Below are positions 12,727-22,567 of a stretch of DNA of 24,000 nucleotides, in pieces. The stretch spans positions 1 through 24,000 of the forward strand of contig DAIDKD010000007.1 of the NCBI GenBank assembly GCA_027451065.1, given 5' to 3'. The position numbers and the translations under genes were made by a program. The notes below the pieces were generated by a model, which saw only the letters and a list, made by a program, of their open reading frames with translations, had not been told where the DNA came from and searched no databases. Position 1 is the stretch's first letter, and each line of letters opens with the position of its first letter. The DNA is from Bacillaceae bacterium. GTDB lineage: Bacteria; Bacillota; Bacilli; Bacillales; Bacillaceae_G.

Positions 12727-12757
12727 ATTATACTTGCTGAAATGCATTTCATGTCAA
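12727..12757 (-). promoter_or_regulatory. Promoter + palindromic operator (site 1) of the HAD phosphatase gene
   Basis: On the minus strand: TTGACA (12757-12752), then a 19-nt spacer beginning with the perfect palindrome TGAAATGCATTTCA (12751-12738), then TATAAT (12732-12727). Confidence 0.65.
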
Positions 12758-12771
12758 TTGCTTTTTCATTT

Positions 12772-12816
12772 CAAAAAGAGGAGTCACACAAAATGCTACG
12801 GTGTGCCTCCTTTTTT
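12772..12816 (-). terminator. Terminator after the MFS gene (bidirectional type)
   Basis: GGAGTCACAC (12780-12789) and GTGTGCCTCC (12801-12810) with one mismatch, flanked by an A-run on one side and a T-run on the other. Confidence 0.6.
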
Positions 12817-12906
12817 GTGGATAGAATGATGAAAGTTCTTATCACTTTTTTCTATAAAATACATTGGGATTGTATCGCGGCACTTTCAAAGATGCTTTCC
12901 TTATCC

Positions 12907-14364
12907 TTACCCCACATTCTCAATATCTACTACTACAGCTTTTTCTTCATGATAGACTGGTTTTTTAATAAATATCGATAAGATTATCGCTAATACTGTA
13001 AGTACAACTCCAATTAAAAATGTGAAGTTAATCGCATCTACTCCTGCTTGTCTAGCAATTTCATCTTGCACCGCATCTGATAACGGTGAGCCTAATTGAA
13101 GTTGTACTTCATTCATCAATTCTGTCGTACGGGCTTCCGAGTAGTGAGTTTTCAACGTAACGAAGATAGCAGTTCCTATTGCCCCAGAAACTTGTTGTAT
13201 AGTGCCATTCACCGCCGTTCCAGATGGATTAAGGTGATTCGGTAACTGATTCAGTCCATTCGTTTGCACAGGAGACATGACGAGAGCAACACCAAGACCA
13301 CGTACAATAAGCCATATCATAATATTCGTTGCCGCTGTTTCTAGGCTCAACAATGATAAAAAATACGATGCAACTCCAATCATGGAAAAGCCAATTATTG
13401 CTAAAGGTCTCGCTCCAACTTTGTCATATAACCATCCTGTAAACGGCATTGCAAGTGCCATAACCAGAGTACCTGGAAGTGAGATTAGCCCTGACTGGAA
13501 AGTAGTATATCCTTGGATATTTTGAAGATAAATAGGCATTAACATCATTGGTGCATAAAGAATTAATGCTAGAATTATTGCAATTACAGAGCTCAGTGCA
13601 AACATCGAATACTTATACACACTTAAATCCAAAAGTGGCTTTTCAATCTTACATTGCCGAATAACAAAGAATACTAAAGCCAAGAGCCCCACGAGGATAA
13701 CGCCATAAACGGTAATATCTGTCCAACCATGGACACTTGCATTACCAAAGCCTAGTAAAATGCTTGTAAAGCTAACGCTTGATAATACTACTGAGAAAAA
13801 ATCAATAGAAGTTTCACGTTGTTCCAACACATTTTCTAATTTCCAAACTGCTAAAGCCAACGCTATTATTGCTAACAATGCAATCATAACAAAAATCATA
13901 CGCCAACCAAATCTATCAACAATAAATCCTGAAAGCAATGGTCCTATTACCGGTGCCATCATATAAATTAGCCCGTTAATCCCTAACGCCATACCACGTT
14001 TTTCTCGACTAACTGTAGCAAGCAATACGTTCATTAAGAGGGGCATTAATATTGCAGTACCAGCTGCTTGAATAGCACGAGCTAGCAGTAACAGTGGAAA
14101 GTTCGGTACAAATATTGCCAGCATCGTTCCGGCAGTAAAAATACTCATTGCTGTAATAAAAACTTGATGACTTTTAAATTTTGTAACAAAATAGGCGCTT
14201 GTTGGAATCAATACACCAGAAACCAACATATTAATCGTTGTTAACCATTGTATCGTAGAATATCTTTCAACCTGTATATCCCTCATAATAACGGGTAATG
14301 CAATGTTTAATGAGACATTGTTTAGTATTGCTACCAATGTTCCCACCATCATGATACCTATCAT
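12907..14364 (-). CDS. MFS transporter, DHA2 (EmrB/QacA-like, 14-TMS) drug:H+ antiporter family; N-terminus interrupted by an in-frame TAG
   Basis: 485 aa and highly hydrophobic, with about 14 predicted helices and a TM1 region (LNNVSLNIALPVIMRDI..STIQWLTTINML) typical of DHA2. The ORF-track start has no SD. A good SD+ATG at 14406 is in the same frame but hits TAG at 14391-14389. Confidence 0.8.
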   Translation of the reverse strand: MIGIMMVGTLVAILNNVSLNIALPVIMRDIQVERYSTIQWLTTINMLVSGVLIPTSAYFVTKFKSHQVFITAMSIFTAGTMLAIFVPNFPLLLLARAIQAAGTAILMPLLMNVLLATVSREKRGMALGINGLIYMMAPVIGPLLSGFIVDRFGWRMIFVMIALLAIIALALAVWKLENVLEQRETSIDFFSVVLSSVSFTSILLGFGNASVHGWTDITVYGVILVGLLALVFFVIRQCKIEKPLLDLSVYKYSMFALSSVIAIILALILYAPMMLMPIYLQNIQGYTTFQSGLISLPGTLVMALAMPFTGWLYDKVGARPLAIIGFSMIGVASYFLSLLSLETAATNIMIWLIVRGLGVALVMSPVQTNGLNQLPNHLNPSGTAVNGTIQQVSGAIGTAIFVTLKTHYSEARTTELMNEVQLQLGSPLSDAVQDEIARQAGVDAINFTFLIGVVLTVLAIILSIFIKKPVYHEEKAVVVDIENVG

Positions 14365-14465
14365 AAAGTATGAGTTCTTTTCGTTCTTCTATTCTATATC
14401 TGCCATTATTCTCCTCACGTTTCCAAAGTGATGCTCGCTTTTTTGTTGAATGAAGATGATTGTAC

Positions 14466-15329
14466 TTATGAAATCTCTTTAACAATTTGTCTCAATGCTT
14501 CTCTAACAGGTGTTAGTGGACGACCAAGAACTTTCTCAAAATCATTACTTTCAACTTCTAGTGAGCCATTCCGAATACTTTGTTGAATTCCTACTACAAT
14601 TGAAATTACATGTTCAGGTAGCCCTAAATCTCTCATGGTCTTACCGTACTCCTCATCACTAACTAGTTGTACGGATACCTCTTTATCCAATACATCACTA
14701 AGGGCACCAACTAGCTCTTCTTGAGTCAAAAGCGGTCCAGATAGTTCGTAAATTGTATTTTCATGGTTATCCCCTGCAAGAACTGCTGCCGCTGCTTCTG
14801 CATAATCTTGTTGCAATGCCCAACCCACTTTACCTTTCTCGGCAGAAGTTAGCCATGAAGCGCCTGATAGAACACCTTGAATGCTTCCGATTTCATTTTC
14901 CAAATACCAATTATTCCGTAAAAAAGAATAAGGAATGCCCGTCTTAACAATAGCTTCCTCTGTCGCTACATGCGGTGGAGCCATTAAATTCCTACTTTCC
15001 GTTGCATTTGCAATGCTTGTATACGCAATAAACTTAACTCCTGCACGTTTAGCTGCTGCAACTGCATTCGTATGTTGGCGGATTCTCGTATCAGTATCAC
15101 CATCTGCTGAAATAATCAATAGACGATCAATTCCTGCAAAAGCGTCATCCAATGTTTGTGGATAATCAAAATCTCCATGACGAACTTCTACACCTTGAGA
15201 ACGCAACCCTTCAGCTTTTTCAGGATTACGGACACTTACTACCAATTGACTTGCTGGGACAGTTTTCAATAATATTTCTACAATCTTGGAGCCTAGTTTT
15301 CCTGTCGCTCCTGTTACTAATAATTTCAT
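14466..15329 (-). CDS. NmrA-like / atypical SDR NAD(P)-dependent oxidoreductase (QorB/YtfG-like)
   Basis: N-terminal Rossmann motif MKLLVTGATGKLGSKIV, length of about 287 aa, and NmrA-type layout. SD GAAGGAGG. Confidence 0.8.
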   Translation of the reverse strand: MKLLVTGATGKLGSKIVEILLKTVPASQLVVSVRNPEKAEGLRSQGVEVRHGDFDYPQTLDDAFAGIDRLLIISADGDTDTRIRQHTNAVAAAKRAGVKFIAYTSIANATESRNLMAPPHVATEEAIVKTGIPYSFLRNNWYLENEIGSIQGVLSGASWLTSAEKGKVGWALQQDYAEAAAAVLAGDNHENTIYELSGPLLTQEELVGALSDVLDKEVSVQLVSDEEYGKTMRDLGLPEHVISIVVGIQQSIRNGSLEVESNDFEKVLGRPLTPVREALRQIVKEIS

Positions 15330-21616: not shown

Positions 21617-21712
21617 TTACTCTCACTCCTCTTTTTAAAAGAAAAATCACTTCATGTCCTAGAATTACCTTATGTAAGATTCACTCGATCTGTTGCAATT
21701 ACTTTTACACCA

Positions 21713-22453
21713 TTAAAAACTCCCATATGTCACTAATTCTAGTGCAGGATGTAACTCCACATTTGTTAAAATATGTAACTCTTTGACCCTTGGTTCCGCA
21801 TAAGAAGATCTCTTTAACAAAGGATAGTCTATATAGGCCGGATGACACATAATTTCAACACTGTTTAAGGATTTTACTCGCTCTGGAAGACTATCAAAGT
21901 AATCAAATGTCACACCCTCGCTGTAGAAATCAGTCAAGCAATTATCAGTAAATCTTTCAACATTCTGTAATTCAATTGGCAATGGGAGATGCGCTGCTTC
22001 TGTAATGCGAACAGGTAGCTGATATTTTTTTGACAGCTTTGCTGTAACAGGTGCTACCCACGGTAATTGGTGGTTGTGATGATGGCTGTCCATATGAGTT
22101 AACGTCAAACCAGTTGCTAAAAATTTTTCAATTTGAGCAGTCCATTCCTTTTCCAATTCTGCTTCATTGATTTCTTCTTTCTCTAAAACAGCTTGAAAAC
22201 TTAAAAAATTACCATCTTCATCTACCAAAGAAGGAACATCATGACAAAGCGGCCTCCCCAAATCTAAAGTAAGATGAATTCCTAATCCTAATGTTAGATG
22301 GCGTTTTGCCAGCTCAATTGCATGATCAGTTCCTTCCATATTCATTAATATTGTTGCTGAGTTAACAATTCCATTTGTATGTGCTTCAATAGTCCCATAA
22401 TTTACTCCTCGTGAATAACCGAAATCATCTGCATTTACAATTAGCTTCGTCAT
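21713..22453 (-). CDS. chbG: YdjC/ChbG-family carbohydrate (chitooligosaccharide) deacetylase
   Basis: N-terminal LIVNADDFGYSRGVN motif, the HxH region MDSHHHNH, and a length of about 246 aa, typical of ChbG/YdjC. Confidence 0.85.
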   Translation of the reverse strand: MTKLIVNADDFGYSRGVNYGTIEAHTNGIVNSATILMNMEGTDHAIELAKRHLTLGLGIHLTLDLGRPLCHDVPSLVDEDGNFLSFQAVLEKEEINEAELEKEWTAQIEKFLATGLTLTHMDSHHHNHQLPWVAPVTAKLSKKYQLPVRITEAAHLPLPIELQNVERFTDNCLTDFYSEGVTFDYFDSLPERVKSLNSVEIMCHPAYIDYPLLKRSSYAEPRVKELHILTNVELHPALELVTYGSF

Positions 22454-22508
22454 AGCATCCTCTCATTCCATTGATTTAATAAAGATACACTTTTATCGAA
22501 TAAGGTTG

Positions 22509-22522
22509 TTTAATCGCTTTCA
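22509..22522 (-). promoter_or_regulatory. cre-like site in the chbG leader
   Basis: The minus strand reads TGAAAGCGATTAAA, one core mismatch to TGWAANCGNTNWCA. It begins 14 nt downstream of the -10, the same relative position as the GH1 cre-like site. Confidence 0.35.
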
Positions 22523-22536
22523 CACAGTATACGATT

Positions 22537-22567
22537 ATCATATTATATGAAATGCATTTCATATCAA
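22537..22567 (-). promoter_or_regulatory. Promoter + palindromic operator (site 3) of chbG / histidine phosphatase
   Basis: On the minus strand: TTGATA (22567-22562), then a 19-nt spacer beginning with TGAAATGCATTTCA (22561-22548), then TATGAT (22542-22537). Here the palindrome extends to 18 bp (TATGAAATGCATTTCATA). Confidence 0.65.

What the first reader, a model, noticed from the sequence alone, without database searches (positions are those of the whole stretch)
12727..22567. Perfect palindrome TGAAATGCATTTCA inside a 19-bp -35/-10 spacer at three sugar-phosphate gene promoters: an undefined regulon with MerR-style promoter geometry
Three minus-strand promoters have the same construction. 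Site 1 is TTGACA-TGAAATGCATTTCAgcaag-TATAAT (12757-12727, HAD phosphatase). Site 2 is TTGACG-TGAAATGCATTTCAgagat-TATGAT (17185-17155, GH1 6-P-beta-glucosidase). Site 3 is TTGATA-TGAAATGCATTTCAtataa-TATGAT (22567-22537, ChbG plus histidine phosphatase). The 14-bp palindrome is identical in all three. It starts immediately after the -35 and extends to 18 bp at site 3, and the spacer is always 19 nt. I found no other copy in the window. Near-consensus hexamers separated by a suboptimal 19-bp spacer filled by a dyad that begins at the edge of the -35 are the hallmark of MerR-family-controlled promoters (merT, soxS and bmr types; established). A simple repressor operator overlapping the core promoter is the alternative. 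The element is not a cre, because its centre is TGCA rather than CG. The targets are a phospho-beta-glucosidase, a chito-oligosaccharide deacetylase and two unrelated phosphatases. This suggests a coordinated response to beta-glucoside or chitobiose phosphates, possibly including sugar-phosphate stress relief. No obvious cognate regulator is encoded in the window apart from the small HTH protein at 11531-11761.
Basis: partly seen in the sequence, partly recalled or inferred. Interest (0 to 1): 0.8.

Follow-up and report, generated by a model that had tools for sequence, protein, structure and literature searches.

The report
CcpB operators inside 19-bp promoter spacers
The three identical palindromes are almost certainly binding sites of CcpB, a little-studied relative of the catabolite regulator CcpA, and in many bacilli this site always sits inside a promoter whose two halves are two bases too far apart, which suggests CcpB may switch genes on by bending DNA.

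Summary
TGAAATGCATTTCA occurs exactly three times in the window (0 in 100 shuffles). Each copy is in the arrangement TTGAnn-palindrome-N5-TAtaAT on the minus strand. The copies precede a Cof-type HAD phosphatase, a GH1 6-phospho-beta-glucosidase, and a YdjC/ChbG plus histidine-phosphatase pair.

The regulon is not undefined, and the regulator is probably not a MerR protein.
- The same promoter core occurs in 91 Bacillales loci. A CcpB-like LacI-family gene lies within 2 kb in 56 of them. A MerR-family gene lies near the motif in none.
- A published regulon reconstruction describes the CcpB motif as a cre-like even palindrome with the central CG changed to GC. It names a HAD sugar-phosphate hydrolase as the core target.

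The MerR-style geometry is real and strikingly conserved.
- 62 of 65 non-redundant promoters found through the motif have the 19-nt spacer.
- 12 of 12 operators found through the CcpB protein alone have it too.
- The dyad centre is at -24.5, as in BmrR promoters.

V. cholerae FruR is a LacI-family precedent for activation through an overlong spacer. I favour a MerR/FruR-like switch run by CcpB. Plain repression is the main rival. The CcpB gene is not in the window, and its binding and effector are untested.

The parts
12727..12757 (-). Promoter-operator 1. -35 TTGACA (12757-12752), CcpB-type palindrome (12751-12738), N5, -10 TATAAT (12732-12727). 19-nt spacer.
   Evidence: The 86%-identical orthologue in L115 has the same core (TTGACC-pal-tgaga-TACATT) in a different genomic context.
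11843..12688 (-). Cof-type HAD-IIB phosphatase (281 aa from the ATG at 12688). Target of promoter 1.
   Evidence: Pfam Hydrolase_3, E 9e-55. P0001 is 100% identical and 281 aa. Cof-type HADs are the commonest first gene behind this promoter type, 30 of 81.
17155..17185 (-). Promoter-operator 2. -35 TTGACG, palindrome 17179-17166, N5, -10 TATGAT.
   Evidence: The same core precedes the 83%-identical GH1 of Bacillus sp. JJ664 (L068), where a divergent ccpB-like gene lies upstream.
17128..17141 (-). cre-like element TGAAAACGTTTTGA, 14 nt downstream of the -10 of promoter 2. Probable CcpA site.
   Evidence: One mismatch to the cre consensus TGWAANCGNTNWCA (consensus from my own knowledge).
15595..17058 (-). 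GH1 6-phospho-beta-glucosidase. Target of promoter 2. The second ATG (17058) is favoured by the RBS spacing.
   Evidence: Pfam Glyco_hydro_1, E 7e-141. GH1 is the first gene behind the motif in 5 other loci.
22537..22567 (-). Promoter-operator 3. -35 TTGATA, palindrome 22561-22548 (18-bp dyad 22563-22546), N5, -10 TATGAT.
22509..22522 (-). cre-like element TGAAAGCGATTAAA downstream of the -10 of promoter 3.
   Evidence: Read from the sequence. One mismatch to the cre consensus, at position 13.
21713..22453 (-). YdjC/ChbG-like carbohydrate deacetylase. First gene of the promoter 3 operon.
   Evidence: Pfam YdjC, E 5e-61.
20897..21616 (-). Histidine phosphatase (branch 1). Second gene of the promoter 3 operon.
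   Evidence: Pfam His_Phos_1, E 8e-40.

Best explanation
Each palindrome is the operator of a CcpB-clade LacI-family regulator. CcpB is a CcpA paralogue, and its gene lies outside this window. The operator is built into a sigma-A promoter whose -35 and -10 hexamers are 19 nt apart, with the dyad centred at about -24.5. Through these operators CcpB co-regulates three units: a Cof-type HAD sugar phosphatase; a GH1 6-phospho-beta-glucosidase; and a YdjC-type deacetylase with a histidine phosphatase. The last two units also carry a cre-like site for CcpA.

Shown: the identity and geometry of the sites; their linkage to CcpB-like genes in other genomes; and the invariance of the 19-nt spacer.

Inferred: the overlong spacer keeps the promoter nearly silent on its own. 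CcpB sits on the DNA face opposite RNA polymerase. It kinks and unwinds the central GC step with its hinge helices, and so acts as a switch. It holds the promoter off in one ligand state and realigns the -35 and -10 in the other, as MerR proteins and V. cholerae FruR do. The likely effector is a sugar phosphate.

My confidence that this is a CcpB operator is about 0.85. The confidence given below is for the whole statement, including the switch mechanism.
For: TF identity:
- tblastn with B. spizizenii CcpB finds a CcpB-like LacI gene within 2 kb of the motif in 56 of 91 Bacillales motif loci. The gene lies just upstream, inside the operon, or divergent.
- In the B. subtilis group the motif starts right after the ccpB stop codon, in front of yyaH.
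- Of 15 CcpB-clade loci fetched by protein similarity alone, 12 carry a TGAAA-N4-TTTCA dyad next to the gene.
- PMC3616900 supplement: the CcpB motif is an even palindrome with the central CG replaced by GC, and the regulon is ccpB plus a HAD sugar-phosphate hydrolase.
- The CcpB-clade hinge helix differs from that of CcpA, PurR and LacI.

Geometry:
- TAnnnT lies exactly 5 nt after the dyad in 62 of 65 non-redundant Bacillales promoters. It does so in 0 of 23 hits from other taxa.
- 12 of 12 protein-selected loci have TTGnnn-dyad-N5-TAnnn(T/A). None of 48 arm-matching sites in 319 kb of other LacI loci does.
- 3 of 3 sites in the window have it, and so does the L115 orthologue.

Mechanism:
- Without BmrR, B. 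subtilis sigma-A RNAP leaves a 19-bp-spacer promoter silent. BmrR kinks the operator centre at -24, widens the minor groove there, and binds opposite RNAP (PMC7722741).
- V. cholerae FruR, a LacI-family protein, binds between -35 and -10 of a 20-bp-spacer promoter and activates with F1P (PMC7897506).
Against: - No LacI-family gene or remnant is in the window, and the rest of this genome could not be retrieved. The cognate CcpB is therefore inferred from other genomes.
- No binding, TSS or expression data were available.
- The published reconstruction labels CcpB a repressor, and LacI-family effectors usually lower DNA affinity.
- In about 15 loci ccpB itself sits behind this promoter. That fits negative autoregulation more simply.
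- The genome-wide scan required TTGA next to the dyad. Sites in other registers would have been missed there. A primer sequence in an E. faecium paper holds the 14-mer 5 nt downstream of a TATAAT.
Confidence: 0.5

Rival explanations
1. Same regulator (CcpB), but a plain LacI-type repressor. It occupies the spacer and excludes RNA polymerase. An inducer releases it, and the 19-nt spacer only makes the derepressed promoter weak.
For: This is the family default, and the published reconstruction labels CcpB a repressor. ccpB operons sit behind the same promoter in about 15 loci, which is typical of negative autoregulation.
Against: It gives no reason for a fixed register and an invariant 19-nt spacer with well-kept hexamers across more than 75 independent promoters in many genera. 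A 14-bp operator would fit equally well in a 17-nt spacer. Operators of other LacI-family repressors occupy variable positions (PMC2329647).
Confidence: 0.33
2. One reading: a MerR-family protein, possibly the HTH_17 protein at 11531-11761, binds the dyad and activates by DNA distortion.
For: The 19-nt spacer and the dyad centred near -24 are hallmarks of MerR-controlled promoters.
Against: phmmer with BmrR, CueR, MerR and TnrA against all ORFs of 115 motif loci plus the window found one MerR-family gene, 5 kb from the motif. The HTH_17 protein has no homologue in any motif locus. The dyad has the arms of a LacI/cre-type operator and co-localises with LacI genes.
Confidence: 0.03
3. The sites are variant cre boxes bound by CcpA itself. 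The three genes would then simply be under ordinary catabolite repression.
For: The arms TGAAA/TTTCA are those of cre. CcpB and CcpA are paralogues, and CcpA is the best PDB match (E 3.5e-26).
Against: The centre is GC, not the CG that is characteristic of 'CcpA-like' operators (PMC2329647). Separate cre-like CG-centred sites lie just downstream at sites 2 and 3. The linkage is to ccpB-like genes specifically.
Confidence: 0.04
4. A dispersed repeat or mobile promoter cassette with no regulator.
For: The 31-bp cores are nearly identical at three places within 10 kb.
Against: Only the functional positions (TTG, the dyad, TA...T) are conserved. The N5 and the flanks differ. The motif is tied to one TF family across genera.
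Confidence: 0.01

Closest known systems
CcpB regulon of Bacillales/Lactobacillales, as reconstructed computationally (RegPrecise; Ravcheev et al. 2013, PMC3616900)
   Same: A cre-like even palindrome with a central GC, a LacI-family CcpA paralogue as regulator, and a HAD sugar-phosphate hydrolase as core target.
   Different: That reconstruction lists about one operon per genome and calls CcpB a repressor. This window holds three promoters, and they add a GH1 enzyme and a YdjC plus histidine-phosphatase pair. None of the text I could read mentions the invariant 19-nt spacer.
MerR-family promoters (merT, bmr, copA, soxS)
   Same: Near-consensus hexamers, a 19-20 bp spacer, and a dyad in the spacer centred near -24 (PMC7722741).
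   Different: The linked regulator is LacI-family, not MerR-family. The dyad is shorter (14-18 bp) and has cre-type arms.
Vibrio cholerae FruR at the fruB promoter (PMC7897506)
   Same: A LacI/GalR-family dimer, an operator between -35 and -10, an overlong spacer, and a proposed activation by spacer distortion in the presence of a sugar phosphate.
   Different: That is a single promoter in one genus, with a 20-bp spacer and extra operators. Here the arrangement is a clade-wide rule in a different LacI subfamily, and it is untested experimentally.
CcpA/cre catabolite repression
   Same: A paralogous protein and the same half-site arms. cre-like sites accompany two of the three promoters.
   Different: The central dinucleotide is GC rather than CG. 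The position is fixed inside the spacer, whereas cre positions vary.

Membership tests
CcpB (LacI-family) operator | Even palindrome with cre-like arms and the central CG replaced by GC | tested here: met
   TGAAAT-GC-ATTTCA at all three sites. Definition from the PMC3616900 supplement.
CcpB (LacI-family) operator | Genomic linkage of the motif to a ccpB-like gene | tested here: met
   56 of 91 Bacillales motif loci and 12 of 15 protein-selected CcpB-clade loci. Not testable for this organism: there is no LacI gene in the window and the genome could not be retrieved.
CcpB (LacI-family) operator | HAD sugar-phosphate hydrolase among the targets | tested here: met
   Site 1 precedes a Cof-type HAD. 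39 of 81 motif promoters precede HAD genes.
CcpB (LacI-family) operator | Direct binding by CcpB and a response to an effector | not testable with these tools
   Needs EMSA, DAP-seq or reporter assays.
MerR-family-controlled promoter | [quoted passage not shown] | tested here: met
   19 nt at 3 of 3 window sites. 62 of 65 and 12 of 12 elsewhere.
MerR-family-controlled promoter | Dyad within the spacer, centred near -24 | tested here: met
   The centre lies between spacer nt 7 and 8, that is about -24.5 if the -10 is at -12 to -7 (read from the sequence). BmrR kinks at -24.
MerR-family-controlled promoter | Cognate MerR-family regulator (winged HTH plus coiled coil), usually encoded nearby | tested here: not met
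   One MerR-family hit in 115 loci, 5 kb from the motif. None is linked in the window.
cre / CcpA site | Central CG in TGWAANCGNTNWCA | tested here: not met
   The centre is GC. CG-centred cre-like sites lie separately downstream.
LacI-family spacer-binding activator (V. cholerae FruR type) | LacI-family TF with its operator between -35 and -10 of an overlong-spacer promoter | tested here: met
   Precedent.
LacI-family spacer-binding activator (V. cholerae FruR type) | Effector-dependent activation; shortening the spacer makes the promoter TF-independent | not testable with these tools
   Needs reporter fusions and in vitro transcription.

The most novel reading that the evidence does not exclude
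The whole CcpB clade of LacI-family regulators works like MerR. Its operator is obligatorily placed in a 19-nt spacer at -24.5. The promoter is silent without the protein, and CcpB plus a sugar-phosphate signal turns it on by kinking and unwinding the spacer from the face opposite RNA polymerase. This would be a second, independent protein family that has adopted 'activation by distortion', conserved across Bacillus, Paenibacillus, Listeria and their relatives.
Probability: 0.45. Interest if true: 0.8.

Novelty: new member of a known kind. Interest (0 to 1): 0.55.

Why it matters
CcpB has been known since 1998, but I found no report of validated targets, an effector or a mechanism. This analysis gives it a precise and testable promoter architecture. 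Its target set is dominated by sugar-phosphate phosphatases, together with 6-phospho-beta-glucosidases, a glyoxalase-like protein and similar enzymes. That points to the handling of sugar phosphates rather than classical catabolite repression. If the invariant 19-nt spacer means what it means for MerR proteins, LacI-family proteins can be dedicated 'distortion' activators. The only precedent I found is one Vibrio promoter. It would also matter for annotation, because regulon databases score these sites as repressor sites by default.

Tried and rejected
- Exact-protein look-ups failed for four window-encoded proteins: the GH1, ABC ATPase and YdjC ORFs and P0001, the collection's copy of the HAD. 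The closest relatives seen are Bacillus sp. JJ664 (GH1 83% aa identity) and an unnamed Logan contig (HAD 86%).
- HAD homologues at about 64% identity in Trichococcus, Clostridium intestinale and Listeria welshimeri lack the motif. Control by this site is therefore not a property of the enzyme family.
- MerR-family genes near the motif: rejected.
- HTH_17 as regulator: rejected.
- Rfam found nothing in the window.
- Literature searches on 'CcpB' and 'yyaH' returned mostly unrelated acronyms.
- The 1998 CcpB paper (PMC106913) is not held.
- Table 1 of the L. monocytogenes motif preprint is held only as an image, and the one supplement held covers the statistical model. TSS-relative positions of the CcpB motif there could not be read.
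- No solved structure of a CcpB-clade protein exists. The nearest is CcpA.
- I did not run a structure prediction, because it would not model the DNA distortion.
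Full report
**Observation**

The 14-mer TGAAATGCATTTCA occurs exactly three times in the 24-kb window, at 12738, 17166 and 22548. No further copy appears with up to two mismatches, and none appears in 100 shuffles.

On the minus strand each copy is flanked in the same way:
- Site 1: TTGACA-pal-gcaag-TATAAT.
- Site 2: TTGACG-pal-gagat-TATGAT.
- Site 3: TTGATA-pal-tataa-TATGAT.

This gives a 19-nt spacer in every case. At site 3 the dyad extends to 18 bp.

The genes behind the sites are a Cof-type HAD phosphatase, a GH1 enzyme, and a YdjC/ChbG-like protein followed by a histidine phosphatase.

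**Spread outside the window**

I scanned one genome per species (185,579 species) for TTGANNTGAAATGCATTTCA. The scan returned 114 loci.
- By record title, 91 are Bacillales: the Bacillus subtilis group, Neobacillus, Cytobacillus, Gottfriedia, Oceanobacillus, Virgibacillus, Paenibacillus, Fontibacillus, Listeria, Mammaliicoccus, Exiguobacterium and Thermoactinomyces. One record in this set is labelled Roseburia.
- The other 23 are scattered taxa, about what chance predicts for 18 specified bases.

Among 65 non-redundant Bacillales promoters:
- TA lies 5-6 nt after the dyad in 65 of 65.
- TAnnnT lies at exactly that offset in 62 of 65.
- None of the 23 other hits has it.
- The two bases after the dyad are usually TA, so the operator is effectively 16-18 bp.

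**Which protein binds**

In the B. subtilis group the motif begins right after the ccpB stop codon and drives yyaH, a glyoxalase-family gene.

tblastn with CcpB finds a CcpB-like LacI-family gene within 2 kb of the motif in 56 of the 91 loci. The gene takes one of three positions:
- directly upstream on the same strand;
- downstream in the same operon, often after a small bPH-like gene;
- divergent, with the motif in the shared intergenic region.

By contrast, phmmer with four MerR-family proteins against every ORF of these loci found one MerR-family gene, and it lies 5 kb from the motif. The window's small HTH_17 protein has no homologue in any motif locus. It also has its own TGnTATGAT promoter.

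The literature agrees. The supplement of Ravcheev et al. 2013 states that the CcpB-group motif keeps the even-palindrome structure but has its central CG changed to GC. It reconstructs the regulon as ccpB plus a HAD-superfamily sugar-phosphate hydrolase. A Listeria promoter-modelling preprint recovers the RegPrecise CcpB matrix de novo.

The CcpB-clade hinge helix reads N-A-I/V-x-L where CcpA, PurR and LacI read A-V-A-R-x-L. This fits a changed central base step. No CcpB-clade structure has been solved, and CcpA is the nearest.

**An unbiased test of the geometry**

The genome scan demanded TTGA next to the dyad. I therefore fetched loci by protein instead, using an alignment of 25 CcpB-like proteins against metagenome contigs.
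- Of the 15 best loci (34-50% identity), 12 carry a TGAAA-N4-TTTCA dyad beside the gene.
- All 12 read TTGnnn-dyad-N5-TAnnn(T/A).
- The central four bases vary among them: TGCA, CGCG, TGCG, TCCA/TGGA, TGGG and CTAG.
- In 319 kb around other LacI-family genes, none of 48 arm-matching sites has that frame.
- The 86%-identical orthologue of the window's HAD was found by protein search, in a different genomic context (next to sdh and uvrC). It also has TTGACC-pal-tgaga-TACATT.

The 19-nt spacer is therefore a rule of this regulator clade and not an accident of this window.

**Regulon content**

The first genes behind the motif promoters are:

| First gene | Count |
|---|---|
| Cof-type HAD | 30 |
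| ccpB operon | 15 |
| HAD_2-type phosphatase | 9 |
| YyaH glyoxalase-like | 9 |
| GH1 | 6 |
| Singles: NUDIX, PhyH, MFS, GntR, and the window's YdjC | 1 each |

Sites 1 and 2 are thus typical members. The YdjC plus histidine-phosphatase operon is new in this sample.

More distant HAD homologues (about 64% identity) in Trichococcus, Clostridium and L. welshimeri lack the motif. Membership of the regulon therefore turns over.

**Mechanism**

Shown: a LacI-type dyad, linked to CcpB genes, lies in a fixed frame inside a 19-nt spacer, with its centre at about -24.5.

Established elsewhere:
- Sigma-A/sigma-70 RNAP needs a spacer of 17 +/- 1 bp.
- B. subtilis RNAP leaves the 19-bp bmr promoter silent unless BmrR kinks the operator centre at -24. 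BmrR widens the minor groove there and binds the face opposite RNAP (PMC7722741).
- From my own knowledge, not tested here: LacI-family hinge helices enter and widen the central minor groove, and they kink and unwind the DNA away from the protein (PurR, LacI and CcpA structures).
- V. cholerae FruR, a LacI-family dimer, binds between the -35 and -10 of a 20-bp-spacer promoter and activates with fructose-1-phosphate. Deleting 4 bp from that spacer makes the promoter constitutive (PMC7897506).

Inferred: CcpB uses the same logic. A plain repressor needs neither a fixed register nor an overlong spacer with well-preserved hexamers, and a 14-bp operator fits in 17 nt. I therefore favour a switch (about 0.5) over plain repression (about 0.33).

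Against the switch:
- LacI-family proteins are repressors by default.
- About 15 ccpB operons sit behind the same promoter.
- No expression data were available.

Sites 2 and 3 also carry a cre-like CG-centred site just downstream of the -10. CcpA probably adds ordinary catabolite repression there.

**Limits**

No LacI gene or remnant is in the window, and the source genome could not be retrieved. The cognate regulator is inferred. Binding, effector, TSS and direction of regulation are all untested.

**Verdict**

The sites are new members of a computationally known regulon (CcpB), not an undefined MerR regulon. The part worth following up is the clade-wide MerR-like promoter frame. I did not find it described for CcpB.

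Noticed in passing
window 17205-17336 (-): This is a 44-codon remnant of a GH1 C-terminus, 75% identical to the tail of the intact GH1 (E 3e-16). It lies between the PTS EIIBCA stop and the -35 of site 2. The bglG-PTS operon seems to have lost its own GH1. The intact GH1 with its CcpB-type promoter resembles the Bacillus sp. JJ664 gene (83% aa), which there has a divergent ccpB-like neighbour.
   Followed up: partly
window 20889-20924 (-): A second, weak GH1-tail-like stretch (KNFDWYRKVIST, E 0.1) overlaps the end of the histidine phosphatase gene. It may be chance.
   Followed up: no
window 17128-17141 and 22509-22522: cre-like CG-centred palindromes lie just downstream of the -10 of sites 2 and 3. 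Site 1 has none. This suggests dual control by CcpB and CcpA.
   Followed up: partly
window 3095-9106 (+) and 9256-11373 (+): There are four tandem paralogues with a PcsB/CwlO-type coiled coil plus an NlpC/P60 endopeptidase domain. A 705-aa TPR protein follows them.
   Followed up: no
window 20205-20394 (-): The leader of the BglG-type antiterminator gene holds a promoter-like TTGCAA-17-TATAAT with TG. It is followed by a terminator hairpin (aacctac...gtagg plus a T run) of the kind that RAT antitermination controls. Rfam found nothing.
   Followed up: no
window 11484-11761 (-): A small HTH_17 gene has its own extended -10 promoter. A very strong 20-bp-stem terminator follows it. It is unrelated to the palindrome regulon.
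   Followed up: yes
L001, L007, L014, L016, L025, L047, L061, L065, L083, L087, L114 (first gene after the motif): A conserved gene of about 100 aa for a bacterial-PH-like protein (weak bPH_3 match) is co-transcribed upstream of ccpB under the motif promoter in many Bacillaceae. Its function is unknown.
   Followed up: partly
L096, L110, L056, L009 (intergenic region between ccpB and its target): In loci with a divergent ccpB, only about 28-40 nt separate the target's -35 from the ccpB start codon. The ccpB promoter must therefore overlap the operator, which recalls the merR/merT arrangement.
   Followed up: no
PMC3669262, primer espcompF: A promoter-containing primer used to complement esp in E. 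faecium holds the same 14-mer 5 nt downstream of a TATAAT. This is a different register from the Bacillales rule.
   Followed up: no
window 22570-23117 and 20400-20890: Two stretches of about 500 nt have no convincing ORF or Rfam match. One lies between the GH4 gene and site 3, the other between the histidine phosphatase and the bglG promoter.
   Followed up: no
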